DNA from: Trypanosoma brucei
Taxonomy: Eukaryota
DNA: 64,000 bases
Assembly (NCBI GenBank): GCA_000002445.1
Contig: CP000071.1
Location: 1,696,001 to 1,760,000, forward strand
Direction: 5' to 3'
Position numbers and translations under genes: made by a program. Numbering within the stretch: position 1 is the stretch's first letter; each line of letters begins with the position of its first letter. The notes beneath the pieces are model-generated. The model worked only from the letters and a program-made list of their open reading frames with translations. It was not told the origin of the DNA and made no database searches. Shown piece by piece: positions 2,127-38,297 of the stretch.

Positions 2127-2546
2127 CGCATACCCGTGTGCGATCGTGGCGGTTTTCGCAAGTGATGATGCGCTTGTCTGCATGCGATAAGACGTCGTGT
2201 CTCGGGTGTGCAGTGATGGGGTGTATGCTCTCATCGCGGGGTGTCGCTGCTTCCACACATGCTAGCTTTGCGGGGGTCGTGGAAGGGGGGCTGCGGCGCA
2301 ACCAGATGCGTCAAAAACGCGGACTATTAATGTAGATGCAGTTGAACTTTGCGCAGACTCCCTGTTTTTGGAGTTGCCGCTACTCTCTCCCTTCCCCTCG
2401 GAAGTTTAATTTTGCACCAAGTTTCTGTATGTTTCGCGTCTTTCCCCTTAAAATGAACGCCTCGTCCCTGGACCAAAACACCCGGTAGCACAACCCCACT
2501 TCTACTCCGTGACCCTCTTTCTTTGAAGGTTGCACAGTGCGAAAGC

Positions 2547-19936: not shown

Positions 19937-19964
19937 CTTCTCTTATATCATTTTTTTTTTCTTG
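19937..19964 (+). promoter_or_regulatory. polypyrimidine tract upstream of the giant BLTP1-like gene
   Basis: cttctcttatatcattttttttttcttg is followed by AG dinucleotides and lies about 220 nt upstream of the ATG at 20183. Confidence 0.4.
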
Positions 19965-20182
19965 AGTTCGAAGCCACCACGAAGTGAGGGACTACAGAGG
20001 ATTAGTTCTACCCCTTCCCATTCAACTGTCCACGGGCTTTGGAGGGCCATCGTGGCGAGGGGGGCTGAGTTCTAGAGAACGAGTTCCCAGAGTCAGAGGC
20101 CACGGCGCCCTCAGGAGCATTAGTGGGACACACAGCACAAGGAAGACGTAAAGGGGTTGTCGGTAGAATAACTGGAAAAAAA

Positions 20183-23100
20183 ATGGAGCCGGGACCGGAG
20201 TCGACAGGCTTCGACACTTCTAAATTTCTCCAGTTTCTTTTCGCCACACTCTTTCTCTTCGTGTGTGTTATGGTTCTCATCATGTATCAACACAAGCTGC
20301 TCAGCTTCGCCGTTCAGACTGTTCTGCGCTATTGTTTCTTGCCATCAACCTCACGAGTTCACCTGGGCGGTCTTCTTCTGTCTCCTCCCGGATGTCGGAT
20401 ATTCTTCCAGAATTTCTTTTATCAGGACGAGAACATGACACTACGTGTCACGGACGGTTACATTTCTTTTGTTTTTTGGGATTCTTGGTTTGGTGATCCC
20501 TCATGGGCAAAGGTGCGGGATTTCATGATGAAGGATGATCTGAAGGGAACACAGTGCTTGGCAAAGGTGAAAACGAAGTGGGTGCGTGGTGTAATTGTCG
20601 ACGTTGAGCGGTCCAAGCGAAAATTACTCGTGCGTTTGGAAAGCGGGGAGCCGGTTAATAGAGAATCAGACCCCGCTCCTCTAGTCGACGATGAGAGGTT
20701 CAACAATTTGGACTGGGGCTCGGAGCTACATGAGATGGCTGATGTGGACGGTGCCTCAAATTCTGTGGTGGGACACAACGGTGATGAAAACACCAGCCAT
20801 CGTAGCAGCTATAACTTGGAGCATAGTAGAGAAAGTCACAGAACAGTCCCCACCAGGCAGCGGGAGGTGAATGTATCATGTGCATCTATTCCCTCTACTA
20901 GCGCCCGAATGTTCTACGCACCAGATTGCCGTAACAGTGATGCCAATTCGAAAGGGGGTGGCGGTGACGGAAATTACAGCAGTGTTACCGCAGTCCATGT
21001 GGAACCTGAAGTGGGAATCAACGGTGAGCCACCCGAGTCTGTAAAGCTCCTTGACATGAGCTTGGTACGCATCCAAAAAAAATGTGGTAGGGTTCGTGTT
21101 CATCTTAACGGAATGGAACTCACCTTTTACAACGCCACGGGAAACTATCGAAAGAGTGAGACCGTGGAAAGAAGCGAACAGGAGAGGAAGCCGAGGCATA
21201 ACGATTCAGTCTTCAAGAGTTTGTGGGGCATCTTCCGACCCCTTTGCAAAAGTGAGAATGATTCCACCGCTCCACGCGACCCCATGGAAGGGAGAGAACA
21301 GCGGCAGCACGAAGGGCTGGAAAGTGAGGAAGAAATGTCGAGCAGGGTAGAGGATACCGGTGTCGAGGATGTCTTTGACGGTGCGCGCACGCGAGCAACC
21401 GTGGAGCAGCACCGCCGGAAGAACACAAAGAGCATCATGCAACGCTTTTATGACTTCGTTGGGGCGGTGGAAGTGGAACTCTTCACAAGCTACGTGAACA
21501 TTGGCGGTGCTGCCGCCGAGCACCCATATTTCCTCCGTGTTGGGTTTAAGCGGGCTGATGGTCTTAGCTATTTAGCTCAAGAAGGCGTTCCGAGCGTTGA
21601 CATATGCCGTCTCGTCACGGAGGCAACGCTAGAAGAGTTGTGTGTCCGCTGGTTTCCCATGAAAAGTACTGAGGAGCAGCATGAGCCAAGAAGCGTGTGG
21701 GACAAGTGGCGGGATTCTTTCTTGCTATACTGCGAAGGTGTGCCACCAGAGCAAAAACCAGAGCCCCTACTCGACGAGCCCGCCGTCCTGATTAAGGACT
21801 ATGGGACAATCATCGGTGACAAGGAGGAATCATCGGCCCACCTCGTTTACTATCGCGACTTCCCCAACGTTTACGCTGGGGAAGAAGTCAGTTGTCAGTC
21901 TGATTTGCCAAAATCGGGTATTGAACTTCTTATTGATACACCAGACTTGTGCCATGGACCGTGGTCCAATTTTTCTATAATGCAGTTGAAAGAATATTTC
22001 GTACCCAATACATACCAGTCGGTTGAGTCACTCAAATTTGAACTAGGTAAGAAACGACCTCACGGATGCTTTGAGATTTACATCGAGCTCCTACGTGAGA
22101 CGTCTCTCATCATACCGTTTAAGCGGAAGACCATCGCACCTACTCCGCCTTTTGGGTTGTGCGACTCGGGTCGGAAGGGGATGGTAGCTGTAACGCTTGG
22201 GCGTGGTTCATCGTATGTGCAAAAGCTGAAAAATCCCCTCCCCCACGAAGAGAAACAGTGCATGGAGAGCTTACTAACGGGGTTGGATGTGTTGGTTGCG
22301 ACCAATGCGATACAGGAGGAGAGCGCGGTGTGCATGAGCATGGACAAAATTGAGCTTTTCGTTGACAAACTTAGTGACAAACCGTACAATGGGCGCAAAT
22401 TGTGGAACATTCTCCCTGTAATGGAAAATGCAGAGGTGTGGTGGCACATGGATTATATAAGCTTCTTCGGCGACCTCTGTCTTGACTGGCTATTTGTGCC
22501 GCACATGTACCATGGAAAGCCCTTCACAACTGAAGAATACAACACGTATAAGTTATTCGTGGAGGAATTTATACCAACCGTCAGGAGGTTTGAGTGTATC
22601 TTTGCAGGAACTTTCAAAATTCACCTGAATGGTAACATGCACAATGCCATTTACAGCGAAAACATCAATGACAAAGCGGCGAACGTATTCTTAACGCTGT
22701 CCACGAAAACTGGTGGTTACATGTTTGTGACGGTGCCTTCAGATTCGTATCTTCTGAGTTCCGTCACGGAAGTGCGGCGGCCGTTCGAGATATCAGTGTC
22801 AGGCATCGAGCTGTTTCTGTCGGTGCCTCACAGTCACCCGCTGCACGAACTTGTCGACATTTCCAGTCCATTTGGCTGCGTTGACAAACTATTTGTGAAA
22901 GGTATGCACACGGTCAACGTACCCAATCAAACTGTACCACAAGACATGGACCCGATAGATCCCGAGACGGGGCAAAGTAAGTTGAGGAACTATTTGGACT
23001 ACGAATTTGACATAACGGGAGTGCGCGGTCATCTAATGGCGCCGCATATCGCCACTTTCACAGAGTTGTTTGAAAACTTATTTGGAGGTTCCTCATGTGT

Positions 23101-26100
23101 AGTGCGACCAGACGAGCTTTTCTGGCCACTGTCCAAAATTCACCCAAAAATTAACACGCCGAAAAACGTCCGTAGTGCCTTCCACACGTACCTTCAGAAG
23201 GACCAACCTCCTACCAATAGTTTGGACTTCAACACAACGGTCAAATTCACTGACATTGACGTCACGCTGCGGACGGGAGAAGCTAAATCTCCCCAAGTGA
23301 ACCTGCGCTTCAGCACGCTAGATATTACCGTAATGAGACAGGCTAGTGTGACAGACATAGGCCTTACAATATCCCCAATATACGGTCGTCTTCCTGCTCC
23401 TCTTACGGGGGACCTTGCAGACTCTACATTCCTGTGTTGTGGTGATGTTTCATTGGGTATTGTAAGGCACTTTGGGCTCCCGCCATTGCGAACTTTATTT
23501 TACAGTGCGTCCGAATGCGTTGTAGATGGCATCTCCTTCTATATGACTGTGGAGCAGGTGGCATTGCTAACAGAGTTATTTACGACCCTCAGGAAACAAT
23601 TCTTTAAGAGCGATGAGGGCCTGCTTGCAGAAATTGAAAAGGCACGAACCGTAGCAGCGTATTCTGCGGACAACTGCGTACTGACCACGCCCGCACAGGG
23701 AGGGAGGCGGCGTGTACCCACAAGTGGGAGGCCGCCGGCATGCTTCAGACGCGTGCGAACTTCCTCCCTACTACCCAGGCCGCGGGGAGAGGAAAACGCA
23801 AGGTGTAAAGCCGCACGCTTAACGCTTATTCGATTTCTCACCCACGGTGGGCCGTTTCTGAAGATTCCCTTCTCCGAACTAGTTCCCGCAGTTGTGGCAA
23901 GTGGATTTCAGGAGTTTCTTGAGCAATTGGACGAGGCAGAGGACTCTGCAAAGGACTACGCAATTCATACGATACTCGTATCAATACCTTCTGTACAGGG
24001 TTGTGTGGCTGTGGGTCCTGACAATTACTTTGAGGTAAAGTTTCCATCAGGCGTCCAGCTGGTTTCAACCACCAAGAATGATCTCAACTCCAATGTGCGT
24101 ACAACAGCCGCCCTCCGTGGTATTGAATTGTGTGGATATTGCCGGAGTAGCAACCACAACATCAAAGATGAGACAAGCCCCTTTGCTGAGGTGTTTCGTC
24201 TTGAAACATCACTTCATGTACAGCGCAGCGTCGCCTACCCTTTTGACAAAGGGCTCGAAATACACAGGAAGAAGCAGCGCCACTTCGTGTTTGAACACGA
24301 CACAGACAGGTTCTTTACGTCAGCGCTTGCTCACGTGCGCAGGCCATGCATGCGGGACGAAAGTTTACAGGACTCAAAAGGGGGGGCTGACGACCCGCAC
24401 TTGTCCTTCTTTCTGAAAGGGGAAGAGGAAGAAGGAGACGAAAGGGAGCTGCGGAGTGCAGGGGTACTTCACAAATTACCAGTGTATAATCAAGATGGAA
24501 AGAACGGAGGAGACTCAGTGGAGGACTGCAAGAATGAAGACGGACCCACGGAGGCCACGCACCACCAGGGATGCGAGGGCACCGCAGCACCTCCTCAACA
24601 ACTTAAGTGCTCAGGCAGAGAAGCGGAACAATCAGCTGGAAATGTATCCACACTAACGAACACCAGAATGGGCATACCTGCGGGTGGAAGCTCGCTGGTT
24701 GAAAGTGACGAGAGCGATGGAACGAGTTTCAATAAAAGCGAAACGAACGCCTTCGCTACATGTGTGTCACAAACAGACGAGCTACTCTCCTATAGTGATG
24801 AGGATGATATGATGAAAGAGCTGTGTGAAAGCGATGATGTCTTTGAGCGCGGCATCTGTAGCACCAGCCACACCCCTGACGATGAGTTCAGTAGGCGGGT
24901 GGACCACCTTCCGGATGAGTGCAATGACTTGATAACCAACTCACTGGATTGTGTGTCGTCAGTGTCTGCATCGCCAAGAGCGTCGGAGGGTAATACTACG
25001 TTGAGTCGAAAGCTAATCACTTCCACACACTTCTTGCGCCGATTCTCCTTTGACCGTCCGGATTCCCAGAAAGACACGCCCGATGGGTGTGACAACACGG
25101 CGCATAACAAGCGTGTGATCGCGAGGGATCGAACCCACTTCCGGGCACCGATGCCCACAGTGGGTTTCGTTCCCTCGAAAAGGCCACCCACAACCCCGAC
25201 ACTTCGTATGCTGCAGCGAACAGTTGATGCATGTAACGGCAATGTTGGTGGCGAAGGTGAGAGTGCCTTCTGGAGTGCCGAGGGGGCGGGAATGTGGGCG
25301 AAGCGGACTGCCGATAACCGCAAACGCTCGCAGGAAGGCACCACGTCCAAACAGATGCATGTTGAATTCTTGGCACCACTAAACTGCCTTGTGGCACAAG
25401 ACTTTGTGGAAAAGCTACTCTTCGATGCGAACACAAGGCTTCAGTCCGTGTTTGCCACACATAACCTTTATTCTTCACTGGATGGAGGAGAAACAGCAGA
25501 CACTGCAGCGGCCCCAATGTTGCCGGTGAGGCATATGAGGCAGACAAGTGGTTTGAAGGGGATGCGGAACTTGATTAAAAGTTCATCGACTCCCGCTGAG
25601 AAGGAGATGAAGAATCTGTTTGCACGCAAGCAGCCAAGCCGAAATCGCGCGCATCAGAAGCGCTGGTATTCTGAAGTGGATATCTGGAGCGTCTGCATTC
25701 CATCCACACGAATAAGTGTTGTGACAGATTTTCCACTGCCCTCAGATAATGTGGTGCACGATGCCCGGGCACGTGGCGTTTACAGCACGCAGTTATGCGC
25801 GCGGTCGGCACAAGTGGTGATGCAACAAACACACCCACCGCCACGTGCTACAAGGCAGGATGAGACGAAAACGTTTTCGTTGTCCACCACGTGTTCATCT
25901 CTCGCTGTCATCACCCAGATCGAGCACGAACCCCTCCTTCGGAGCGATAACCCGTTTGTGAGGGTCCCAGGGATTGATTATGACAGAAAGGACACACTCG
26001 CCGTCTTATACTTTACTTCGATTCGTGGCCGCATGCGCCATCAAAACACGCAGGGTATACAAAACGGTATCTACCATTTATCCGTAGACACTATCGCCCT

Positions 26101-29100
26101 TCACGCCGCTCGCGACTTCTTCTTCTACTTGCACTCTACACTGGCGTTGTGGGAACGACTTAATGGAGCTTGGTGTGCACAAGAATATCCTCGCTGGTAC
26201 CGTGGGCGACCTTCACCAGAAACCTGGAGCAGCCACAACGATGACAACGAGGCCCGTGAGGGGAGTCACGGTGCGCCGGGAAGCTCTGTGGCGCACTTTG
26301 AACATTTACATTCTGCTGTACCAACGACCCGGAACTATGGCATTGAAGGCAGTCGCGTCTTTCAGGGTGTGGGGTCCATACGGGTTGTCCGTTTGGAACT
26401 CTTAGACGTGTCCCGCGACGGTCACTACTTGCGCGTGGACACGCGCTGTCCCAACGTGGTCGAAATAAGCCGACTGCAAGCGAAGTTTGTCGTGCGGGTA
26501 CCAATGAAGCGCGCGCACGACCCCCTGTCCGTCCCATCGAGGCCCCTTGTGAGGCAGAATTCTTCGGTGACATTGAGCTCCAGTGAAGTGTGTTCAGGGT
26601 TTGTGCCGAGTCAGGAATGGAAGCGTCGACCACCCCAACTCAGTACGGTGCAGATTCAATTTATTGGCGAAGTGGAGCATGCCGTGGCGAGGTGTTTTCC
26701 CTCACTATTGCATATCATGGGAGCGGTAAAGGGGAGCGAATGGGTAGCGGATTCGCCAATAGAAATCATATCTGAATCTAAGTGTTCCAAAACCCCGAAT
26801 GATGAGGGAGGCTCACCAGAAGTGGATTGTGGATTCTCTAGTCAACCTCGGGCAGACGCGGCGAATGATTGTAACCAGGTGACATTTAGAGGGAGCTTTG
26901 CACTCGGTAACATTGATGTGTGCATGATTCAGTCCGAAATGAACTTTCTCCAAATAAAGGGTACTGGGCTCGCGGGGTTTGGGGAAGCGCGGGCAGAAGC
27001 TATCAACTCGCGGGAGTGCGTGAAGACGCATGTTCTAACAGAAGCATTCTCTGAGCGGATTAAACGGCAATTACGTGCATGGGCGGACAGAGCCCGCACA
27101 GCCGCCCCCAAGGGTCACTATCCCACTCCTCCTTCCGTGACACCTCAGCTGCGTATGAAAAATAGCGGGTTCTTCGCAGCGGAGACCATGAGGCTGCAAT
27201 ACGTTGCAGACGTGGTAGCACCTTGTACAGATGGGTTTGAAGTTATCGATTATGAGGAGGTGAGTGAGAAAACTCACCGTCAGGATCCGCGCGTCTTCGT
27301 TGCGAGCACTAAACAGCTTCGGGTTGACATGCACCATGCTGAACAAGAAGGCCCTCGGGGTAGTGCCGAAGGGTGTAAAACGGACCCACCAGACACCAGT
27401 TGGGTAGCTGACAGCTCTGAAAAAGGTGAACAGGTCAATGTGCAAGTGGACATTGGAAGTGCGGTGCTATCACTGCCATATCGACCGAAGGCTAGTGAAA
27501 TTGTGCAGCCGCAACTTCAACAGTGGGTTCACGAATGGCTGGGCCCGTCGGTACTACAAACAATGTACACTTCGCAGACGGTTTTGGCCGGCGGCTATCA
27601 CCTCGGGGTGAGACCACAGAGCAAGATATATGCATGCTGCTGTTCTTTGCGAGTTCGTGACGCGCTTCTGCAGAGTGACCTTCCACAAAATATGACTTCT
27701 AACCTGACGATTCCCCTTGCGTCGCTTTTCTTGAATGCCTCCTCAGAGGGGCGATTGGCACTAAAGGGGCATTTGCATCCCACCAAACTATCATCGTCCA
27801 GCCCAACGTCTGGAAGACACACAATGAGTCTGCCAAATATTTTCGTTTTCTACAACAGTGATCGGCTAAGGCGTTCGGGCATGTGCCTGACAGAAACCGT
27901 GGAAGTGACCGTGTCTCCCATCATCGTTAGTCACTTGCTTTTTATTTTCAACCGGGCGTCGACCGTACGCTCAACCCTTACAAAGATTTTCAAACCAGGA
28001 GAAGCCGAACAGGTGGATCCACAGCAAAAAGTGGGAAATTTAAATCTTCAAGACAACCAGAGGAGAAAGAGTAACTTTTTACTGCTGGTCGAAGGACTCC
28101 GCATATCTTATCTCACCTCCATGACTAACATGCGCTTTTCCGCCTGGCGGTTAAAGGGGAGGATGTACACAACCGAGGATGATGACTTGTGCAGGTCCCA
28201 TATGACTCTGAAAGTCGCGAATGTGCAGGTCGCCCTTGTGGACCGTGATGACTATGATCAACTTCAAACCTTCCTTCACCAGTCGGAGTACCTTCAGAAA
28301 CGTGCGGAGAGCTCGAGTGGGAGATCTTCGAAAGAAAAACTGATGTCGTCTTCGTTGCCAAATTCACTGGATCAGGAACGAAAGCGGTCGATCAGCACGC
28401 TCAACGGGTTTATATGGGGTCTATTCGAAACGTCTCTCACATTGTCCACTGGGCGGAGTGATACAAATGAACTCCACTCAGCACTTAAAAGCATTGCTGC
28501 AACTGCGCCTGTGAGAACCTCTGTAAGTCTTCGCAGTTTGGGGAACGTGGGCAATACCGCCACACGCTGGAACGTGGCCATATTTTCACCGCTTCTTATC
28601 GCCCGCGTTGGGTTAGCTCAACTGTTGCAGCAATCAATTGATGAGGCGAAGGAACTGGCGGACAAAATGCACCGAGCTGCAAGGCGCGAAAGTCGGAAAT
28701 ACCACCGTCAACTCGCAAAATCCGCTGTGTATCAGCGTTTAACGCGCTTAGAGCGGCGGGAAAGCCAACAAATGCTTAGCACACAACGTCAACAGGTAGA
28801 GCGCCTTATTGCGTTAACAAACAATGTAATACCAGGGCAAAGTGGGGCAAGTCAGCGACGCGCTTCAATTGCGCTTTCGGTGGAACCAAGTTGTGAGGAC
28901 GTGGTGGAGGGAAGTATATTCCAAACCACCTCCGACCATAAGTTCTTCGTGACGATGACTAATTTTCTTGCTGTTGTCCCGTTTGGGGACGCGCCTTATC
29001 GTACAATATTGGAGGGCACCACCGACGCCTCCCACCGTGGATGCCCCAGTGATGTTTTATTAAACCGCAAGGACTTTGTTCCGACTATGGCGATGAAGGT

Positions 29101-32100
29101 GAAGGTGGAGGGCACTACTGTTGTGTGCCGAGCCCTCATGTCACAGCAGCGAGTGCCCCTGTTGCCAACCAAATCAGTAGGGGCACTGCGAAGCGACGGT
29201 ATCGGTGCTTTTTTGGGTGCCACTGATTCTTCCACAGGGACGAGGCAGATATTTACGTCGAAGTTTATGCTTAGTGATGCGCACTTTTACTGCAGTGACG
29301 GCTCACCGCTTGAGCGAGGCACATCAGCCAAAAGTGTGCTCAGCAGCACGCACGTATTCGGTGGTATTGGTACCCTCACGAGCCCCGGGAAGGGAGAGTA
29401 CCGTAATTCGCTTTCGAAGGTATCGTTCAACTCTATTGAAATACCTTTGCATATCAACAGGTGTGGAAGGAGCGTGAGCATTGGGTCGGTAATGGATATG
29501 AGTGCCCCGCAGATCTCCGTGTCCACACAAACTGCAAGCATCCTCAGCCAGTTCACGAATGAGATGTCGACCAAGTCTCTTTCTTCCGTCTTCCGGCACC
29601 GCGAAGGCGGCGCGGACGCGAAGACAAAATCAGCAGAGGTGATTGCAGAACCGTCTGGTATACATACAGCATCTGGTGGTCCCGAGAGATATAGGCGGGA
29701 AAGAGGAAGGAGGACACATCATACTGATCCAGAGTGCCCAGTAACTAGTGTGCTGCAACAGGCTGAACTGACGCCCATATTGTACAACTTTGACGTGACG
29801 GCACGTCTTGAAGCGGGTGAAATGTATGTTTACTCTATTCAAAGAGGTACCGCAACCAACACTAATGCGTCATCGCAGCAACTGGGAAGCACAGTGAACA
29901 AGGTAAACCGAACCTCAAAACGACAGGTGAAATTCAAACCCATTGCACCAGGCGGAGAAGCCGAGTTTCCGGGTAGTCCAAGGGTTCCGAGCGGACTTGC
30001 AGCCAAAAAGCTGATGTCTGTTCTACTTAAGATACCTCTCCCCGAAGTGACAGCAATGGTAATGGGAAGCTATGGTGGGAGCATGGCAGACGAAGAGCGA
30101 CTTATCGCCCGCGTGGAGATAAGGGAAAACACAATCGAAATAGATCCCTCCATAATTTCACTAGCCCACGAGATTGAGGAATGGGAGGTGATACAGGCTC
30201 GCGATAGTGCAGAGCACGTTGCCAATACACTGAAACTTGTCAAAGGGTGGGAGAGGGATGAAGAAATAAAACATCTCGCCCGCTACTCCACTGTTGCAGA
30301 TGTGGCGTTGCCGCTTCCCCGCGCGTTCCTGTCCGTGCTATCAAATGCAGAATTACAATCAAAGAAGGCAGTAGCGCACCAAAATTTGGGACGCTTGGGG
30401 AACTCTCACCAACCAAAGACAACATCACCACCTTCGCTACAGGATCAAGAGAAAAGGCTTCAGCATGGGCACGAGGATGCGCCAACAAATCATAGTGATG
30501 GGAAACGGAAATTACTTAGTGTGCAGATCCGTGTTACAGAGTTCCGTCTTGTGCTAACCACAGAGCCCGCGTCAAACATAAGCTTCACCCTTTCCCTTGA
30601 TGATCGAGTGGGAAGTGTTGATTTCTTTATAAAGCGGATTCAGACACCATCTACTACGTGGATTGAGGATGTACCAGTGTACAGCCCTCCTGTTGTTCTA
30701 CTACTACTATGTGTCCGCCGTCTGCGTGTGGAATGTCAAGCCAAGATGGAGGTGAAGTCCGTGGAAATGTATCTGCAAGAAGTGGAAGCGCAAGCAGCAC
30801 TACAACAGCACGATAATGCTCTGGTGCTCACGAACGTCTACGTACACCTTCCAAGAGATGCATCAAGTAGCGGAAAGATGGAGCTGACGGTGCGCGCTCC
30901 ATACGTGTCGCAGATGTTCATTTTTCAGGCGTTGTGGCAGCGTAGTTTATTAGAGTCACTGGCCAGCATAAACCGCATTTTTGATCGGGGTGCTGCCATC
31001 TTCAGGGAAAAAATGAAGGCCAATCCGTATATCCGGCGGCGCGGGGTTGCTACAAAGCAGGCGGAGAGGTCGTTAGTTGTTGCTGTTACGGGATCACACG
31101 GAAATGTGCGGGTCGACTTGGGGTCTGGTAACGCCCATTTGGTGTCTGTGGGGAGCATGAGCCTCGCACTGGTGATAGCACAGTCGTCCATTGATCAGGC
31201 GCAAAAGGTATGTATCGACGCTTCGGTGAGGAGCATCATGCTCCGCTCAGAGGGAGTTCTTTCCGGCGTGGCGAGGGTTGACACAATATATTTAAAGGGA
31301 TTCTCTCTATCTAATAGTGGTGGATCAACCAAGGTCGTGCGGTCCCCTGCAGGGCGGACGTTCCGATACTTGCTTTGTGCGCAGAAGTTGCATGCTGTGT
31401 TCAAGGAACGGCAACTGAGGGACTTACTCGAGGGCCAGGTTGGGGAAATTATCCTCAACTTCATGGACAGCACGGGCGAAGGGGTTGCGACAAACGTGAG
31501 GCTGGACGTATCCTTGAGCCGCAGTAACGTAGTCATAACGCCCAGTACGGCCCCCACTTTCGTGCGTACGTTTACCGATTGGTGTAATATTGTCGCGGAG
31601 CAGAGTGCGGCAGCGAAAATGAAGTTGGCGAAATTGGGCATGGAGACGGGCCACACCTCACCAGAAGAGGATAAGGGAGAAAGTGGTCGCCTTGCTGAGC
31701 AGGAAGTTGGATTCCATGCTTCTGGAACTCGCGCCGGTAGAGGGTCAAGCAGTCGAGAGGGTCGACCACCCTTGCATGACAATTTCAATATCACGCCATC
31801 GTTCGTTGCGATACCCGAAGAAGAAGAACAGGGTCAAGATAAGGTCATTAAAAGCAAGGATGGGACGTGCAGCAGTAGCAATAGTGATGCAGAGAGCACT
31901 TCCTATATTCCATTTATGGGCAACAAACTCACTCGTATTCCCTGCGGGTCAATAGAGGTTGTGCTTGATCGCTCTTCCATCCTTCTTGGCAACGCCTCGG
32001 GCGGTGTGGATAAGGCAGGTTGCATCATAGCGACATTCCCGCATGCAACCTTGTCGTTTGCGGAGTGTCCAAGCGAAGAGGACACTGTAGTCAAGCGGGT

Positions 32101-32797
32101 GTTAGAAATTAATACAAACAACATGGAGCTTTATCGACCCGGAGCAACGAAGGTGCTTATTCTTGGTTTCCACGGCATCAACAGGTATGAATTCTACACT
32201 CGTCAGAAAGTTGGAAGCAGTGAAGTGGGTTATGTGATGACCCTCCATCAAGTGCACCCGTGGACAGGTAATCCTGGTTTGCAGGATTTCCAGGAATTAA
32301 TTCAACTCGTCCGATCCTTCAAGGCGACGAAGAAGACCAAACCATTCCAGCGCTTCGGCGAGATTGATGACATGTGGAACGCACCTGAAGGCTCGATGCC
32401 GATGACACCACCGGGGGCGGATAACAGAGCCCCAACCAGCACAGCTGTTGTAGAGGAGGAAGGGGAGAGAGGAGGCGTCGATGCGGATATCGCCATCTCT
32501 AGTTCCAGTGTAACTGGGCTTGTAGCCACTTCATTGTCTGATATGAGTTCAAGAAAAGGCAAGAAAGCTGTGGACAAGCGCTATATGAAACCGCTGCGCA
32601 ATGTGCAGTTTGCCCCTCAGTTACGCTTCGGTGGTGCAGTTGCTGTGAACGTTGATGTAATCCTCAATTGGTTTGGTATAACTAAGAATATGCTCCCTCA
32701 TATAATCCACACCAAAGCTTGTGATGTATTGGAGGGCGTTCTTTGCTTTCTTGAGGGAGTTGCTGCGGGCCGCACCAGAAAAATTAAAGAATCCTAG
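20183..32797 (+). CDS. giant protein (4,204 aa), BLTP1 / KIAA1109 / Tweek / Csf1-like bridge-like lipid-transfer protein candidate
   Basis: It is a single uninterrupted 12.6 kb ORF. I trimmed the GTG start at 20123 to the ATG at 20183 (MEPGPESTGF...). An N-terminal transmembrane helix (FLQFLFATLFLFVCVMVLIMY) is followed by FFYQDENMTLRVTDGYISFVFW, which closely resembles the conserved BLTP1/Csf1 N-terminal motif as I recall it from human KIAA1109 (YYITEDMSIRIQDGFIIFRWW). A polypyrimidine tract lies at 19937-19964. Confidence 0.8.
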   Translation: MEPGPESTGFDTSKFLQFLFATLFLFVCVMVLIMYQHKLLSFAVQTVLRYCFLPSTSRVHLGGLLLSPPGCRIFFQNFFYQDENMTLRVTDGYISFVFWDSWFGDPSWAKVRDFMMKDDLKGTQCLAKVKTKWVRGVIVDVERSKRKLLVRLESGEPVNRESDPAPLVDDERFNNLDWGSELHEMADVDGASNSVVGHNGDENTSHRSSYNLEHSRESHRTVPTRQREVNVSCASIPSTSARMFYAPDCRNSDANSKGGGGDGNYSSVTAVHVEPEVGINGEPPESVKLLDMSLVRIQKKCGRVRVHLNGMELTFYNATGNYRKSETVERSEQERKPRHNDSVFKSLWGIFRPLCKSENDSTAPRDPMEGREQRQHEGLESEEEMSSRVEDTGVEDVFDGARTRATVEQHRRKNTKSIMQRFYDFVGAVEVELFTSYVNIGGAAAEHPYFLRVGFKRADGLSYLAQEGVPSVDICRLVTEATLEELCVRWFPMKSTEEQHEPRSVWDKWRDSFLLYCEGVPPEQKPEPLLDEPAVLIKDYGTIIGDKEESSAHLVYYRDFPNVYAGEEVSCQSDLPKSGIELLIDTPDLCHGPWSNFSIMQLKEYFVPNTYQSVESLKFELGKKRPHGCFEIYIELLRETSLIIPFKRKTIAPTPPFGLCDSGRKGMVAVTLGRGSSYVQKLKNPLPHEEKQCMESLLTGLDVLVATNAIQEESAVCMSMDKIELFVDKLSDKPYNGRKLWNILPVMENAEVWWHMDYISFFGDLCLDWLFVPHMYHGKPFTTEEYNTYKLFVEEFIPTVRRFECIFAGTFKIHLNGNMHNAIYSENINDKAANVFLTLSTKTGGYMFVTVPSDSYLLSSVTEVRRPFEISVSGIELFLSVPHSHPLHELVDISSPFGCVDKLFVKGMHTVNVPNQTVPQDMDPIDPETGQSKLRNYLDYEFDITGVRGHLMAPHIATFTELFENLFGGSSCVVRPDELFWPLSKIHPKINTPKNVRSAFHTYLQKDQPPTNSLDFNTTVKFTDIDVTLRTGEAKSPQVNLRFSTLDITVMRQASVTDIGLTISPIYGRLPAPLTGDLADSTFLCCGDVSLGIVRHFGLPPLRTLFYSASECVVDGISFYMTVEQVALLTELFTTLRKQFFKSDEGLLAEIEKARTVAAYSADNCVLTTPAQGGRRRVPTSGRPPACFRRVRTSSLLPRPRGEENARCKAARLTLIRFLTHGGPFLKIPFSELVPAVVASGFQEFLEQLDEAEDSAKDYAIHTILVSIPSVQGCVAVGPDNYFEVKFPSGVQLVSTTKNDLNSNVRTTAALRGIELCGYCRSSNHNIKDETSPFAEVFRLETSLHVQRSVAYPFDKGLEIHRKKQRHFVFEHDTDRFFTSALAHVRRPCMRDESLQDSKGGADDPHLSFFLKGEEEEGDERELRSAGVLHKLPVYNQDGKNGGDSVEDCKNEDGPTEATHHQGCEGTAAPPQQLKCSGREAEQSAGNVSTLTNTRMGIPAGGSSLVESDESDGTSFNKSETNAFATCVSQTDELLSYSDEDDMMKELCESDDVFERGICSTSHTPDDEFSRRVDHLPDECNDLITNSLDCVSSVSASPRASEGNTTLSRKLITSTHFLRRFSFDRPDSQKDTPDGCDNTAHNKRVIARDRTHFRAPMPTVGFVPSKRPPTTPTLRMLQRTVDACNGNVGGEGESAFWSAEGAGMWAKRTADNRKRSQEGTTSKQMHVEFLAPLNCLVAQDFVEKLLFDANTRLQSVFATHNLYSSLDGGETADTAAAPMLPVRHMRQTSGLKGMRNLIKSSSTPAEKEMKNLFARKQPSRNRAHQKRWYSEVDIWSVCIPSTRISVVTDFPLPSDNVVHDARARGVYSTQLCARSAQVVMQQTHPPPRATRQDETKTFSLSTTCSSLAVITQIEHEPLLRSDNPFVRVPGIDYDRKDTLAVLYFTSIRGRMRHQNTQGIQNGIYHLSVDTIALHAARDFFFYLHSTLALWERLNGAWCAQEYPRWYRGRPSPETWSSHNDDNEAREGSHGAPGSSVAHFEHLHSAVPTTRNYGIEGSRVFQGVGSIRVVRLELLDVSRDGHYLRVDTRCPNVVEISRLQAKFVVRVPMKRAHDPLSVPSRPLVRQNSSVTLSSSEVCSGFVPSQEWKRRPPQLSTVQIQFIGEVEHAVARCFPSLLHIMGAVKGSEWVADSPIEIISESKCSKTPNDEGGSPEVDCGFSSQPRADAANDCNQVTFRGSFALGNIDVCMIQSEMNFLQIKGTGLAGFGEARAEAINSRECVKTHVLTEAFSERIKRQLRAWADRARTAAPKGHYPTPPSVTPQLRMKNSGFFAAETMRLQYVADVVAPCTDGFEVIDYEEVSEKTHRQDPRVFVASTKQLRVDMHHAEQEGPRGSAEGCKTDPPDTSWVADSSEKGEQVNVQVDIGSAVLSLPYRPKASEIVQPQLQQWVHEWLGPSVLQTMYTSQTVLAGGYHLGVRPQSKIYACCCSLRVRDALLQSDLPQNMTSNLTIPLASLFLNASSEGRLALKGHLHPTKLSSSSPTSGRHTMSLPNIFVFYNSDRLRRSGMCLTETVEVTVSPIIVSHLLFIFNRASTVRSTLTKIFKPGEAEQVDPQQKVGNLNLQDNQRRKSNFLLLVEGLRISYLTSMTNMRFSAWRLKGRMYTTEDDDLCRSHMTLKVANVQVALVDRDDYDQLQTFLHQSEYLQKRAESSSGRSSKEKLMSSSLPNSLDQERKRSISTLNGFIWGLFETSLTLSTGRSDTNELHSALKSIAATAPVRTSVSLRSLGNVGNTATRWNVAIFSPLLIARVGLAQLLQQSIDEAKELADKMHRAARRESRKYHRQLAKSAVYQRLTRLERRESQQMLSTQRQQVERLIALTNNVIPGQSGASQRRASIALSVEPSCEDVVEGSIFQTTSDHKFFVTMTNFLAVVPFGDAPYRTILEGTTDASHRGCPSDVLLNRKDFVPTMAMKVKVEGTTVVCRALMSQQRVPLLPTKSVGALRSDGIGAFLGATDSSTGTRQIFTSKFMLSDAHFYCSDGSPLERGTSAKSVLSSTHVFGGIGTLTSPGKGEYRNSLSKVSFNSIEIPLHINRCGRSVSIGSVMDMSAPQISVSTQTASILSQFTNEMSTKSLSSVFRHREGGADAKTKSAEVIAEPSGIHTASGGPERYRRERGRRTHHTDPECPVTSVLQQAELTPILYNFDVTARLEAGEMYVYSIQRGTATNTNASSQQLGSTVNKVNRTSKRQVKFKPIAPGGEAEFPGSPRVPSGLAAKKLMSVLLKIPLPEVTAMVMGSYGGSMADEERLIARVEIRENTIEIDPSIISLAHEIEEWEVIQARDSAEHVANTLKLVKGWERDEEIKHLARYSTVADVALPLPRAFLSVLSNAELQSKKAVAHQNLGRLGNSHQPKTTSPPSLQDQEKRLQHGHEDAPTNHSDGKRKLLSVQIRVTEFRLVLTTEPASNISFTLSLDDRVGSVDFFIKRIQTPSTTWIEDVPVYSPPVVLLLLCVRRLRVECQAKMEVKSVEMYLQEVEAQAALQQHDNALVLTNVYVHLPRDASSSGKMELTVRAPYVSQMFIFQALWQRSLLESLASINRIFDRGAAIFREKMKANPYIRRRGVATKQAERSLVVAVTGSHGNVRVDLGSGNAHLVSVGSMSLALVIAQSSIDQAQKVCIDASVRSIMLRSEGVLSGVARVDTIYLKGFSLSNSGGSTKVVRSPAGRTFRYLLCAQKLHAVFKERQLRDLLEGQVGEIILNFMDSTGEGVATNVRLDVSLSRSNVVITPSTAPTFVRTFTDWCNIVAEQSAAAKMKLAKLGMETGHTSPEEDKGESGRLAEQEVGFHASGTRAGRGSSSREGRPPLHDNFNITPSFVAIPEEEEQGQDKVIKSKDGTCSSSNSDAESTSYIPFMGNKLTRIPCGSIEVVLDRSSILLGNASGGVDKAGCIIATFPHATLSFAECPSEEDTVVKRVLEINTNNMELYRPGATKVLILGFHGINRYEFYTRQKVGSSEVGYVMTLHQVHPWTGNPGLQDFQELIQLVRSFKATKKTKPFQRFGEIDDMWNAPEGSMPMTPPGADNRAPTSTAVVEEEGERGGVDADIAISSSSVTGLVATSLSDMSSRKGKKAVDKRYMKPLRNVQFAPQLRFGGAVAVNVDVILNWFGITKNMLPHIIHTKACDVLEGVLCFLEGVAAGRTRKIKES

Positions 32798-34177: not shown

Positions 34178-34525
34178 AAAATGCAGTTGTTTGGAAAGCG
34201 TTTCATCTGATTGAGCCTGGCCGCGATGAAGAGCATCGGTAACTGAAGTGAATTGGGATTATGTGGAATCTTCTGCGCGTCGTAGACGATTTCTTACGTC
34301 TCTCTGCTATCGTTCTCTACATTTTCTTTTTTTGTTCGCGTACGCAACGTGCCTTCGTAACATCGTCTTCAACTTCCCTACTTGCGAAAGTGTGGACAAT
34401 GCCCTGTCTTTACTTCATTAGCTCTCTTTGTTTTAGTGTAGAGGCGGGAAAGGAGGAGAGAGTTTAAGTTTGTTGCCGGTGGAACCAGGTGAGTAGTAGT
34501 CATTTAGAGAAAAGGGTTTGCCGGA

Positions 34526-34546
34526 ATATATATATATATATATATA
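34526..34546. repeat. (AT)10 microsatellite
   Basis: A perfect alternating run lies in the spacer downstream of the 33272 gene. Confidence 0.85.
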
Positions 34547-36230
34547 AGCAAATTAGGCTCACAGTGGTAGAACTCCACTGCCGTTGAACAGGCGACAACG
34601 TTTGCCTGTTTTTTTGTAACCGCCTCTACAACTGGTGAGTGTCCCTCCCACTCCGACGGCCTGCATTTGATTGGGTAAACGCACCCAACGGTTATTGATA
34701 CGAAGAAGGAAACAAAGGCAAAAGCGAAGAGAAAATAAAGAAAAACGATGTCACCATGGAAAAAGGAGGAGGAAGTGTGCGGAAAACCTACACAATATAA
34801 TCTACAAACCTGTGAATACAATTGGCGGTCACTTCCAGATACGCACTTTACATTTGAGGCTCAGAATAGGCGCCGAAGACACATCGGTATTCTTCCCGGG
34901 TTGCAAGGAACTGAGAAATACGAGGCCCGAAAGATTCCGCCGATGGAATCACCACGCGCTGATCCATCACCCCCTGTATGGGACGCCAGACCACCAGCGC
35001 TGCCGCTGCAACCGTTATCACAACCCACTCTCAACATTCTTCCATGGTCACATGAGGGTTTACGCCAAATGATTATGGCAAACAATATGGAAGCGCAGCA
35101 CTCGTACCTGCGTGGAGTGTAGTGTAGTGGAAATTAGTAGGTGAAGAAGGGGGTCAATGATCCCCTACGTTAATGTATTGAAAATTGTCATGCTCAGAAG
35201 TACTATTACACAACTTTGACTATTTTTGGAAGACCGGAGCGGCTCCTCTATACACCTCTGGGGCAAGCGAGTGTGGTGCCGCCGGTGTGTTTCAAGTTTC
35301 TTTTTGTCGGTGTTTTGTTCTTTCTTCTTTTTCTTCTTTTTTCTTTTTTTGCTGCCGTTCACGTGGCAATCTTTTTAAATGTGGAGTATGTGGGGCTTAT
35401 GGAGTGGCCAGGGTGTACCACCTAAAGAAATTACGTAATCATCTACCTTAGAATAAACGACGGGAAGACGAGTGCTGTGGCATGCTTAAAAGCCTCGAGT
35501 TCGTTCTTCTGCGTTCAAACATACACATACTCTGCGTAATTACATGCCATGGAAGCAGCATGTGCCCTCAAGATGGTTTGGTGCTAGACCATGTGCTGTT
35601 GGATTTTGTTTTGGTTGTTATGTTTTTTTTCTTTTTCTTTTTCTTTTGCTCCTCTCCTCTCCTCTTCGCCTTCCGTTTTGTTTTTAATTTTTCGTCCCTT
35701 GTACGCGGCTGCACGCTCCTTTAGTTAACAGTTTTCGTGTTGTCTCCTTGAGGCGTTTTACACAGATATTTCGTTTTTGTTCGTTTGTAATCATCTTATT
35801 CTCGCTGGTGAGCAACTTCCCGTGCTTTCAACGTGCATGAGTTTTTTTTTGTTTTTTTTTTGTGTGTGTGGGGAGGGCCCTGTTTATGTGCAAAATAAAT
35901 AAGTATCATGAGGGGATCTTTCTCTTACATTTTGGATGACTGGCATAATAAACACACGCGTGGCGCAATTGTTGCCAGTTGGAAGGACCGTGAATAAAAT
36001 GTATTTTGCTTTTCTGTTGTCTTTTTTTTTCTTTTTTTTTAATCTCTTTTATACCTAACTTGACGCCAGTTGTTACGCCAAATCTGTAACACGGAAACAA
36101 AAGAAATGTGTTTGTATGCGGTTTGGGTTTTCTTTTTTTCTTCTTTTTCTCTTTTTTTGGAAAAAAAAATGAGGGACAAACTGTTCGGTGCAGGTAAGTT
36201 CAATAACCCTTTTGCTCGTGCAGTCACGTT

Positions 36231-36310
36231 GCCCTTCCCCTTTTTATTTTTACCTCCCTCAATTTCATTCATTTCTCTTCCGTTTGTTTCTTTTACGTCC
36301 CACTCACATT
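36231..36310 (+). promoter_or_regulatory. long polypyrimidine tract upstream of eIF1A
   Basis: gcccttcccctttttatttttacctccctcaatttcattcatttctcttccgtttgtttcttttacgtcc is followed by AG and lies about 100 nt before the ATG at 36407. Confidence 0.45.
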
Positions 36311-36406
36311 TATTGTTTCACAAAAGAGAAGGAAGGAAGAGTTCCAACTCACTTTTTTTTTACGCTTAACTTTTAATCCCCACAACTACTAAATAATCCC
36401 GCCAAG

Positions 36407-36925
36407 ATGCCCAAGAATATGGGAAAGGGCGGCAAGTCCTTTAAAGCCGGTAACGCGAAGGGAATCATGCAAAACCAAAAGCGTGAGATCGTTTTGGCTA
36501 ACCCTGACGAAAATGAGGAATATGCGCAGGTGAAGAAACCTCTCGGTAATCTTCGACTTGAGCTGCAGTTAGCCGACGGTAGCAAAGTTATTGGTGTCAT
36601 TCGAGGGGCGATGGTCCGCAAGGTTTGGATTGGTCAAGGTGATGTCGTGTTGGTTTCGAAGCGGGAGTTCAACGAAAATGATGTTGTTGATGTTATTCAC
36701 CGTTACACGCCGCAGGAGGTGCGAAAACTTGTTAAGAAGGAAATTATCCCTCGTGACTTCCGCTCAGCAGACGAGCGCGACGCCAACAACGCCCACTCCG
36801 ATTATGTGTTCGTGGCTGAGAATGACGAGGACGACGATGATGATGATGACGACGACGACGCCAAAGTCATCGACCGCCATAAGGTCGTCTTGGATGACCC
36901 GCTGGCAAACTTTGACGACCTCTGA
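36407..36925 (+). CDS. EIF1A: eukaryotic translation initiation factor 1A (eIF1A) with an extended poly-Asp C-terminal tail
   Basis: It has the S1/OB-fold core (REIVLANPDENEEYAQVKKPLGNLRLELQLADGSKVIGVIRGAMVRKVWIGQGDVVLV), a basic N-terminal tail and a D10 acidic tract. The ATG is at 36407 and a polypyrimidine tract lies at 36231-36310. Confidence 0.9.
   Translation: MPKNMGKGGKSFKAGNAKGIMQNQKREIVLANPDENEEYAQVKKPLGNLRLELQLADGSKVIGVIRGAMVRKVWIGQGDVVLVSKREFNENDVVDVIHRYTPQEVRKLVKKEIIPRDFRSADERDANNAHSDYVFVAENDEDDDDDDDDDDAKVIDRHKVVLDDPLANFDDL
36824..36859 (+). repeat. (GAC/GAT)n trinucleotide tract encoding the D10 acidic tract of eIF1A
   Basis: gacgaggacgacgatgatgatgatgacgacgacgac lies within the eIF1A CDS. 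Confidence 0.9.
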
Positions 36926-38008
36926 CAACCGTGGGGAAGGAGGGGAAGAAAAGAAAAAGAAAAAAAAGAAGTAATAAAAACAACAACAACAAAAAAAAAA
37001 AAGAAAAGAGAAATGTGACTATTTGTGAGCTCCCTCCCTCTCTCTCGGGCGATGACGGTGCCATCAGTTAGGCGCGCTATACAAGAGTGCATATTTTGAG
37101 CTTCTCACTACTTGCTCACACTATACGACTTCACTTCAGCAAACTGCTTCTCACATCTCCCTCTTTTTTTTTATTTCTTTCAAACCTCGCCATTCGGCGC
37201 CACTCCAATATGTGGGTAGTTTTCAGCATAGGTTTTTTTGTTAACCGTAAAATAGATTAAACAAGGGAAGGTGTGGAATAAAAGATGCAAGTGCGAATGG
37301 AGGAGAGGGGATGAAGTTCGATACATGTGGATATCAGACGCTTGAAGAGTAAGTGGACCGTAACTAAGCAACGACAGTAGTTAAAAGTAGCTAATCAAGT
37401 ATCCCCAAATACTGCAAAATAAAAATAGTAATAATAATAATAATGTGTGCTCCGCTGTGTTTACATGTTAGAAGTGTATGAAGTCGAGATGCGCTGGTAT
37501 GTGACATTCATCTATCGATGGTAGCATTTGCCTTTCACGTACATTATCACAAACTTCCCCCTGTTAATTACCTTTCGTTGTTTTTGTTTTTGTTTTTTTT
37601 TTGTTTTTCTCCTGCGCATGACTGTATTACCTCATGTAACCACGCTGGTTCTTCTCATGTCGTTGTTATGTTGGTCGTAAGTCTTCGATGATGATGATGT
37701 CAAATGTCTTTGGTACACAAACACGCAGGGAACCGCAACGCTCTGTTGGGCAATTCCATGTTACAGACAGTGGAAATGCTAAGTCGCCACAGTCACTCAC
37801 TTTGAGTTTTTAGTCACCGCTATTGAAACTACATGATATTTCGCAAAAAGAACGAGTGTAGCACGTGCCTTCATTTCCCATGGAGATAGGAGTCGGACAT
37901 TCCACTCAATGAGGGCCTTGAAGGGTTAGGGTTATGGGAGCGTTAAGGCTTGTTTTTGAAATATTATTAACCTGTCACGCACTACTGAGCCAGCGTGTGC
38001 ACTCGCAT

Positions 38009-38011
<3 letters not shown>

Positions 38012-38045
<34 letters not shown>
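38012..38045. repeat. (TA)17 dinucleotide microsatellite
   Basis: A perfect alternating TA run of about 34 bp lies about 250 nt upstream of the ASF1 ATG. Confidence 0.9.
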
Positions 38046-38048
<3 letters not shown>

Positions 38049-38297
38049 TTATTTGTTCAGCCCTAGTTACTTGTCGTCCACATGCTTTCCCTCCCCATCC
38101 TACCCAAGAGCAGCTAACTGCCGTGGGTGGAATTGGTGAGTACCGTCAAACTGTTTGGTGTAATATTTCGTCTACATACCTGAGTATCCACGCTCTCCTT
38201 TTTTTTTTTTTGGTTGCGCTCTCACGACAATGCAAATACGCATCAAAAATAATAATAATAACGTGACAGACAATACCGGTACTGTTTCGCTAACGCG

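What the first reader, a model, noticed from the sequence alone, without database searches (positions are those of the whole stretch)
20183..32797. 12.6 kb single-exon gene encoding a BLTP1/Csf1/Tweek-like bridge-like lipid-transfer protein
It is a 4,204-aa ORF whose N-terminus has one TM helix followed by FFYQDENMTLRVTDGYISFVFW, which closely parallels the conserved N-terminal motif of BLTP1 (human KIAA1109: YYITEDMSIRIQDGFIIFRWW, quoted from memory). The size and N-terminal topology also fit BLTP1 rather than VPS13 (no N-terminal TM) or ATG2. Bridge-like lipid-transfer proteins in kinetoplastids are barely characterised, so this gene is a good candidate for an ER-plasma-membrane lipid conduit. 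It is the only gene in the window for which several antisense ORFs above 150 aa arise by chance, consistent with long GC-balanced coding sequence.
Basis: partly seen in the sequence, partly recalled or inferred. Interest (0 to 1): 0.6.

Follow-up and report, generated by a model that had tools for sequence, protein, structure and literature searches.

The report
Trypanosome BLTP1/Csf1 lipid-bridge gene, already known
This 12.6 kb gene really does encode the Trypanosoma brucei version of the giant BLTP1/Csf1/Tweek bridge-like lipid-transfer protein, but a 2022 paper already identified it, so it is a correct rediscovery and not a new finding.

Summary
Window 20183..32797 (+) is one uninterrupted 4,204-codon ORF. 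It has a single N-terminal transmembrane-type segment (aa 12-44) and the quoted motif at aa 78-99.

The interpretation also holds. Pfam alone gives only sub-threshold BLTP1_N and Csf1_N hits. Profile-profile comparison of kinetoplastid orthologues with bona fide fungal Csf1 proteins gives 99.9% probability (E 3.7e-37, 950 columns) at the N-terminus. At the C-terminus it gives 97.9% (E 4.7e-13), overlapping the Csf1_C region. No VPS13, ATG2 or Hobbit family is hit.

It is not new. The protein is exactly XP_847415.1 (T. brucei brucei TREU927, "hypothetical protein, conserved"). It is 99% identical to XP_011775923.1, which Levine (2022, PMC7613979) named as the full-length Trypanosoma Tweek/Csf1 homologue.

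Its location, acceptor membrane, lipid cargo and partners in trypanosomes remain untested.

The parts
20183..32797 (+). Complete coding sequence of the BLTP1/Csf1/Tweek orthologue: 4,204 aa plus stop, no interruption. Identical to XP_847415.1 / UniProt Q57YI6 of T. brucei brucei TREU927.
19937..19966 (+). Polypyrimidine tract followed by AG, about 215 nt upstream of the ATG. This is a plausible trans-splice acceptor region, inferred from the sequence only.
   Evidence: read directly from the sequence and not tested
20225..20287 (+). N-terminal transmembrane helix core (aa 15-35). It is the only strongly hydrophobic segment of the protein and the presumed membrane anchor. AF2 models one continuous helix over aa 12-52.
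20414..20479 (+). Conserved N-terminal motif FFYQDENMTLRVTDGYISFVFW (aa 78-99), within the first beta-strands (aa 58-96). It aligns with LPD-3 aa 22-111 and with fungal Csf1.
20642..21079 (+). Variable, poorly conserved insert (aa 154-299) with pLDDT about 20. Its length differs between species.
21092..23098 (+). Conserved N-terminal region (aa 304-972) homologous to the Csf1_N/BLTP1_N region. It includes the GPW...FxP, IPF, DW and FIP blocks.
   Evidence: fold match
30500..31594 (+). C-terminal region (aa 3440-3804) homologous to the Csf1_C region of fungal Csf1. It is modelled as two blocks of long beta-strands, each ending in a long helix.
32609..32794 (+). Extreme C-terminal motif FAPQLRFGGAVAVNVDVILNWFGI followed by a terminal helix (aa 4143-4204). 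It is shared with a Csf1_C-bearing protein (P0034: FDPQLKITGD...LVNWLGV).

Best explanation
The gene encodes the Trypanosoma brucei orthologue of BLTP1 (human) / Tweek (fly) / LPD-3 (worm) / Csf1 (yeast), one of the five eukaryotic families of repeating-beta-groove (RBG) bridge-like lipid-transfer proteins. Shown here: it has one N-terminal transmembrane helix. Collinear homology to Csf1 is highly significant at the N-terminus (about 950 aligned columns) and in the C-terminal region (581 columns). The collinear match at the extreme C-terminus reaches significance only with HMMER, and the middle gives only weak matches. Both modelled ends have RBG-type folds. Inferred from the characterised homologues: the helix anchors one end in the ER. 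The roughly 4,000 remaining residues form a long rod whose beta-sheet groove or tunnel holds phospholipid acyl chains. The conserved C-terminal region contacts a second membrane. Lipids then flow in bulk along the rod between the two membranes at a contact site. Long, poorly conserved loops account for the length differences between species. The acceptor membrane, the direction of flow and the cargo in trypanosomes are not known.
Against: Direct Pfam scores are far below the curated cut-offs (17.2 against 100 bits; 16.4 against 98 bits), and no Pfam C-terminal family is hit directly. Kinetoplastid-only profiles give no sequence hit to LPD-3 in the PDB. The N-terminal model has low overall confidence (mean pLDDT 44.8, 5-sequence alignment). 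About 2,300 central residues were not modelled, so a continuous groove is not shown. A simple even/odd hydropathy test on the predicted strands showed no amphipathic alternation (z -0.2 and -1.0). There are no data on localisation, lipid binding or phenotype.
Confidence: 0.88

Rival explanations
1. It belongs to a different RBG family, such as Hobbit/BLTP2 (which also has an N-terminal transmembrane helix), VPS13, ATG2 or SHIP164/BLTP3, and only resembles BLTP1 through the shared fold.
Against: No Chorein_N, VPS13, ATG2 or Fmp27/Apt1 Pfam hit appears even at E<=10, while BLTP1_N and Csf1_N do appear. Sequence-profile matches are specific to Csf1 and collinear at both ends. The PDB contains Vps13 and ATG2 chains, yet only LPD-3 is hit by sequence. 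The N-terminal Foldseek score for LPD-3 is 21 orders of magnitude better than for Vps13. A transmembrane helix argues against VPS13, ATG2 and SHIP164 (Levine 2022).
Confidence: 0.04
2. It is a true BLTP1-family homologue, but in kinetoplastids it works at a lineage-specific contact and not at the ER-plasma-membrane contact the reader proposed. Examples would be ER to mitochondrion, flagellar pocket, glycosome or acidocalcisome. It might also act mainly as a tether or scaffold.
For: Homologues themselves are reported at different sites: ER-PM for LPD-3 and Tweek (PMC9649747; bioRxiv 10.1101/2023.11.06.565932), ER-mitochondria for human BLTP1 (bioRxiv 10.1101/2025.09.30.679455), and PE supply to the ER for yeast Csf1 (PMC8757616). 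The kinetoplastid proteins are highly divergent (about 19-23% identity to fungal Csf1 in aligned parts) and carry large lineage-specific inserts.
Against: Nothing here argues against it. It refines the best explanation and does not contradict it. The conserved N- and C-terminal ends suggest the end-to-end bridging logic is retained.
Confidence: 0.35
3. The long ORF is a chance open frame or a pseudogene with no functional product.
For: None, apart from the trivial presence of several long antisense frames.
Against: A 12.6 kb open frame at about 51% GC cannot arise by chance. It is conserved over its full length across kinetoplastids, with hundreds of invariant positions. It is annotated as a protein in three T. 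brucei-group genomes.
Confidence: 0.01

Closest known systems
Fungal Csf1 (for example Gaertneriomyces semiglobifer KAI8998306.1 = P0035; Cytidiella melzeri = P0005; S. cerevisiae Csf1)
   Same: Both have an N-terminal transmembrane helix followed by the same conserved motif. Homology is collinear over the N-terminal ~1,000 aa, the Csf1_C region and the extreme C-terminus. The size class is similar.
   Different: Identity in aligned parts is only about 19-23%. Pfam Csf1_N and Csf1_C do not reach threshold on the trypanosome protein. The trypanosome protein is about 800-1,200 aa longer because of poorly conserved inserts. The middle third gives only weak matches.
C. elegans LPD-3 / human BLTP1 (KIAA1109) / Drosophila Tweek; cryo-EM structure 9cap
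   Same: This is the best structural match for both models. The N-terminal transmembrane helix plus motif aligns to LPD-3 aa 22-111, and the GPW/DW blocks align to aa 283-507. The length is similar (4,204 against 4,299 aa).
   Different: The sequence match to LPD-3 was found only when a fungal Csf1 was included in the profile. Kinetoplastid-only profiles gave none. Whether trypanosomes have the LPD-3 partners Spigot and Intake is unknown.
XP_011775923.1, T. brucei gambiense DAL972 (Levine 2022, PMC7613979)
   Same: It is 4157/4204 identical and falls in the same 90% cluster. It is the published 'full-length Tweek homolog in Trypanosoma (4203 aa)'.
   Different: It differs by one residue in length and 47 substitutions. 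It is a subspecies allele of the same gene.
Other RBG proteins: Vps13, ATG2, Hobbit/BLTP2, bacterial TamB
   Same: They share the general fold of repeated long beta-strands forming a groove. They are secondary structural hits.
   Different: There is no family-specific sequence match. Vps13 and ATG2 lack the N-terminal transmembrane helix.

Membership tests
BLTP1 / Csf1 / Tweek | N-terminal transmembrane helix that anchors the protein (ER in the characterised members) | tested here: met
   The single hydrophobic segment is aa 12-44, and AF2 models a helix over aa 12-52. Insertion into the ER itself was not tested.
BLTP1 / Csf1 / Tweek | Passes the Pfam BLTP1_N (PF20413) or Csf1_N (PF21678) gathering score | tested here: not met
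   Scores are 17.2 bits against a cut-off of 100 and 16.4 bits against 98. T. theileri scores 23.7 and T. vivax 13.6. These models are long (1,119 and 1,656 positions), and no kinetoplastid protein scanned here reached their cut-offs.
BLTP1 / Csf1 / Tweek | Significant, collinear homology of the N-terminal ~1,000 aa to bona fide members | tested here: met
   hhalign gives 97.7%, E 1.4e-12 and 99.9%, E 3.7e-37 over 950 columns. hmmsearch gives 60-71 bits for the main segment.
BLTP1 / Csf1 / Tweek | Conserved C-terminal region (Pfam Csf1_C PF25038 / FSA_C-type) | tested here: met
   There is no direct Pfam hit. However, the kinetoplastid C-terminal profile hits the chytrid Csf1 P0035 and the Csf1_C-bearing P0034 in a 1.84-billion-protein search. 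hhalign gives 97.0%, E 1.1e-10 for aa 3447-3805 against P0035 2706-3058, overlapping its Csf1_C match at 2672-2954. The 10-against-3 profile comparison gives 97.9%. A single-sequence comparison with P0005 was not significant.
BLTP1 / Csf1 / Tweek | Absence of the markers of the other RBG families (Chorein_N, VPS13 domains, ATG2_CAD/ATG_C, Fmp27/Apt1) | tested here: met
   None was reported by hmmscan at E<=10.
RBG superfamily | Repeating units of about five long beta-strands plus a loop or helix that form an extended groove | tested here: met
   This was shown for the two modelled ends only, through secondary-structure patterns and top structural matches to LPD-3, Vps13, ATG2A and TamB. The N-terminal model has low confidence (pLDDT 44.8).
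RBG superfamily | The groove is continuous over the whole length of the protein | not tested
RBG superfamily | Hydrophobic lining of the groove and a hydrophilic exterior | tested here: inconclusive
The even/odd hydropathy alternation test on predicted strands showed no signal (z -0.2 and -1.0). That test is crude for long, twisted strands.
BLTP1 / Csf1 / Tweek | Amphipathic helix after the transmembrane helix and at the extreme C-terminus (Levine 2022) | tested here: inconclusive
   Helices are predicted at aa 36-52 and 4171-4203. Their hydrophobic moments (0.33-0.39) are below the protein-wide 95th percentile of 0.43.
BLTP1 / Csf1 / Tweek | Conserved helical bundle of about 120 residues near the middle (Levine 2022) | not tested
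   A helix-prone stretch is visible by eye around aa 2805-2880, but it was not modelled.
BLTP1 / Csf1 / Tweek | Binds and transfers glycerolipids at a membrane contact site | not testable with these tools
   This needs biochemistry and cell biology.

The most novel reading that the evidence does not exclude
Yeast Csf1 supplies phosphatidylethanolamine to the ER for GPI-anchor synthesis (Toulmay et al. 2022, PMC8757616). The most novel reading not excluded here is that the T. brucei orthologue is a rate-limiting lipid supply line for the parasite's exceptionally heavy GPI-anchor production (VSG coat; my own knowledge). It might also serve a kinetoplastid-specific contact such as ER to flagellar pocket. 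Either would make it important for bloodstream-form viability. Nothing in the sequence tests this.
Probability: 0.15. Interest if true: 0.6.

Novelty: already known. Interest (0 to 1): 0.25.

Why it matters
The gene is a useful entry point for studying bulk lipid transport in trypanosomes. Public records still call it "hypothetical protein, conserved" or "Transmembrane protein". No experimental work on a kinetoplastid BLTP1 turned up in the searched literature. Its presence in kinetoplastids, including Perkinsela and the prokinetoplastid Papus, supports the published view that the family dates back to the last eukaryotic common ancestor. The identification itself adds nothing beyond Levine 2022. 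This work adds explicit statistics for the C-terminal homology, a list of kinetoplastid orthologues, and two structural models.

Tried and rejected
1. A phmmer search of the full protein against PDB sequences found nothing. Kinetoplastid-only profiles (A2 full length, A3 and A5 C-terminal) also found no BLTP1 chain. The only row was a chance-level NRBF2 hit at E 0.91.
2. The third homologous-protein search, with the N-terminal alignment, returned nothing. The 8,000-candidate word filter was probably saturated by low-complexity words. This wasted the last search of that kind.
3. The C-terminal profile against a single basidiomycete Csf1 was not significant (E 0.28). The chytrid Csf1 and deeper profiles were needed.
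4. The even/odd hydropathy alternation test on predicted strands, used as a proxy for a hydrophobic groove face, gave no signal.
5. Hydrophobic-moment scans of the helix after the transmembrane segment and of the C-terminal helix gave moderate, undistinctive values.
6. The AlphaFold-database fold library (afdb50) was not available, so there was no comparison with predicted Csf1, Hobbit or Trichomonas models.
7. P0004 (6,580 aa) was too long for Pfam and for profile queries. I used a version trimmed to the query's alignment columns.
8. Tandem-repeat and Rfam scans of the whole window found nothing.
9. I considered and rejected VPS13, ATG2 and Hobbit membership and the chance-ORF explanation; see the rival explanations.

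Full report
**Observation.**
The window carries a single open frame at 20123..32797 on the + strand. All ORFs of 200 aa or more that have family matches lie on the + strand. This fits one kinetoplastid polycistronic unit. The neighbours are ordinary housekeeping genes: a mitochondrial carrier, Las1, an NHL-repeat protein, mitoribosomal L17, ASF1, an Elp3-like radical-SAM/GNAT protein, a cullin, an XPD-type helicase and a desaturase.

A Kyte-Doolittle scan finds exactly one strongly hydrophobic segment in the protein, aa 12-44. The quoted motif FFYQDENMTLRVTDGYISFVFW starts at aa 78. A polypyrimidine tract followed by AG lies about 215 nt upstream. That is what a trans-splice acceptor would look like, but this is inference only.

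Four antisense open frames of at least 150 codons fall inside the gene, and no other gene holds more than one. This follows from the gene's length and carries no further meaning.

**Identity of the sequence.**
The translated protein is an exact match to XP_847415.1 / AAZ13349.1 / UniProt Q57YI6, "hypothetical protein, conserved" or "Transmembrane protein", of Trypanosoma brucei brucei TREU927. The same 90%-identity cluster holds the T. equiperdum protein and XP_011775923.1 of T. b. gambiense DAL972. The latter is 4157/4204 identical to the window protein.

**Family assignment by sequence.**
Pfam on the protein alone gives only BLTP1_N (aa 13-101, E 1e-3, 17.2 bits against a cut-off of 100) and Csf1_N (aa 792-893, E 1.5e-3, 16.4 bits against 98). 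Nothing from the VPS13, ATG2 or Hobbit families appears even at E<=10. So direct Pfam membership fails, but the only families touched are the right ones, and the hits fall in the same order as in the profiles.

Homologue searches gave T. vivax (42% identity), T. theileri (40%; UniRef name "Fragile site-associated protein..."), and a 6,580-aa relative from a read-archive assembly (29%). With a profile of these, the search also gave a basidiomycete protein, P0005, at E 2.2e-7. P0005 is a bona fide Csf1: it scores 388 bits on Csf1_N and also carries BLTP1_N and Csf1_C.

- hhalign of the four kinetoplastid sequences against P0005 gives 97.7% probability, E 1.4e-12, aa 314-972 against 123-790.
- The alignment shows shared GPW...FFP, IPF, DW and FIP blocks. 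It also shows an aligned transmembrane helix plus N-terminal motif.

**The C-terminus.**
I searched a profile of aa 3280-4204, built only from kinetoplastid sequences, against 1.84 billion representative proteins.

- It returned 32 hits. These are mostly kinetoplastid orthologues: Leishmania mexicana (4,438 aa), T. grayi, Angomonas deanei, Perkinsela and Papus (names).
- It also returned a chytrid protein, P0035 (E 1.1e-4), and a 916-aa fragment, P0034 (E 5e-5).
- P0035 is a clear Csf1: Csf1_N 379 bits, BLTP1_N 163 bits, Csf1_C 42.5 bits. P0034 carries Csf1_C at 49 bits.
- P0034 shares the extreme C-terminal motif: FDPQLKITGD...LVNWLGV against FAPQLRFGGAVAVNVDVILNWFGI.
- A 13-sequence kinetoplastid C-terminal alignment against P0035 gives 97.0%, E 1.1e-10, aa 3447-3805 against 2706-3058. 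This overlaps P0035's own Csf1_C match at 2672-2954.

I then compared whole proteins locally. A 10-sequence full-length kinetoplastid profile against three fungal Csf1 proteins gives 99.9%, E 3.7e-37 over 950 columns at the N-terminus. It gives 97.9%, E 4.7e-13 over 581 columns at the C-terminus. Two weaker hits are collinear with these. hmmsearch with the same profile scores 121-147 bits in four to five collinear segments, including the transmembrane/motif segment and the extreme C-terminus.

**Link to metazoan BLTP1.**
An N-terminal profile that included the fungal Csf1 hit exactly one PDB sequence: 9cap_A, C. elegans LPD-3, at E 1.7e-19. The transmembrane/motif segment aligned to LPD-3 aa 22-111 and the GPW/DW blocks to aa 283-507. 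Kinetoplastid-only profiles did not reach LPD-3. The sequence link to animal BLTP1 therefore runs through fungal Csf1.

**Structure.**
*N-terminal model.* AF2 on aa 1-1150 with a 5-sequence alignment gave a low-confidence model (mean pLDDT 44.8, pTM 0.45). Structured stretches reach 60-83.

- It shows a helix at aa 12-52, then strands at 58-96 and 124-152.
- A disordered stretch follows.
- After that come many strands of 15-23 residues interleaved with helices.
- Foldseek against the PDB ranks 9cap_A first (E 2.6e-26, 668 columns). Next come the Vps13 N-terminal fragment (2.4e-5), TamAB (1.4e-4) and Atg2 N-terminal domains (3e-4).

*C-terminal model.* AF2 on aa 3440-4204 with a 13-sequence alignment gave a better model (mean pLDDT 67.5, pTM 0.64; structured parts 75-94).

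- It shows three blocks of long strands, each closed by a helix.
- It has two disordered loops, one between the second and third blocks and one just before the C-terminal strands and final helix, and a final helix at model residues 732-764.
- Foldseek again ranks 9cap_A first (E 2.6e-11), then Vps13 and Atg2.

Only 1,432 residues of LPD-3 are in the deposited model. The C-terminal match therefore reflects the shared RBG architecture and not position-specific equivalence.

A crude hydropathy-alternation test on the strands gave no signal. Continuity and hydrophobic lining of the groove are therefore not shown.

**Mechanism.**
By homology, the protein is most likely anchored in the ER by its single N-terminal helix. 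It would extend as a rod-like beta-groove or tunnel to a second membrane, contacted by the conserved C-terminal region, and carry phospholipids in bulk. This matches what the LPD-3 cryo-EM structure shows directly: a rod-shaped tunnel filled with ordered lipids (10.1101/2024.06.21.600134).

The topology, the homology and the fold of both ends are shown here. ER residence, the acceptor membrane, direction and cargo are inferred. Homologues are reported at ER-PM contacts, at ER-mitochondria contacts, and as a PE supply to the ER for GPI anchors.

**Comparison with what is known, and novelty.**
[quoted passage not shown] That accession is the 99%-identical T. b. gambiense allele of this gene. Literature searches found no other paper naming this protein and no experimental study of a kinetoplastid BLTP1.

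The finding is a correct, independently reasoned rediscovery of a published bioinformatic assignment. Novelty is "already known". What remains open is the biology in trypanosomes.

**Verdict.**
Interest is low to moderate (0.25): a specialist would not be surprised, although the gene is still unannotated in public records and is a reasonable experimental target.

Noticed in passing
window 59945-61240 (+): The ORF combines a fatty-acid desaturase domain with a C-terminal cytochrome b5 domain (Pfam). It lies in the same polycistron as the lipid-bridge gene. C. elegans lpd-3 was found as a suppressor of a desaturase mutant (PMC9649747 abstract). The proximity here is probably coincidence.
   Followed up: no
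window 34178-38297: About 4 kb has no ORF of 200 aa or more on either strand. GC is the lowest in the window, 0.42-0.45 against about 0.50 elsewhere. This is an unusually long ORF-poor stretch within a polycistron.
   Followed up: no
window 42001-44000: GC peaks locally at 0.585 and GC skew is negative (-0.127), while the rest of the window is positive. The two ORFs there (41598-42266 and 42539-43141) have no Pfam match.
   Followed up: no
window 2523-5183, 40177-41091, 46417-47847, 50608-51393 (+): These ORFs of 886, 304, 476 and 261 aa have no Pfam family at the thresholds used (E<=0.001 or E<=0.0001). They may be kinetoplastid-specific proteins.
   Followed up: no
window 24380-25282 (aa ~1400-1700 of the gene): This is the least conserved part of the protein (9-30% identity per 100-aa block to T. 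vivax and T. theileri) and is rich in Ser, Asp and Glu. Two of the four long antisense open frames (24793-25440 and 25020-25574) overlap it.
   Followed up: partly
P0004 (6,580 aa; Logan assembly): This full-length homologue is only 29% identical and about 2,400 aa longer, entirely through insertions between conserved blocks. The source organism is unknown, presumably a distant kinetoplastid.
   Followed up: no
P0030 (238 aa; hit): This short predicted protein starts like an alpha/beta-hydrolase (…IHGYLANHAAW…LPGFGDS…) and ends with the BLTP1-type C-terminal motif (FAPQLRFGGDVAVSVDVIFGWLGV). It is probably a mis-joined gene model in a metagenome or transcriptome.
   Followed up: no
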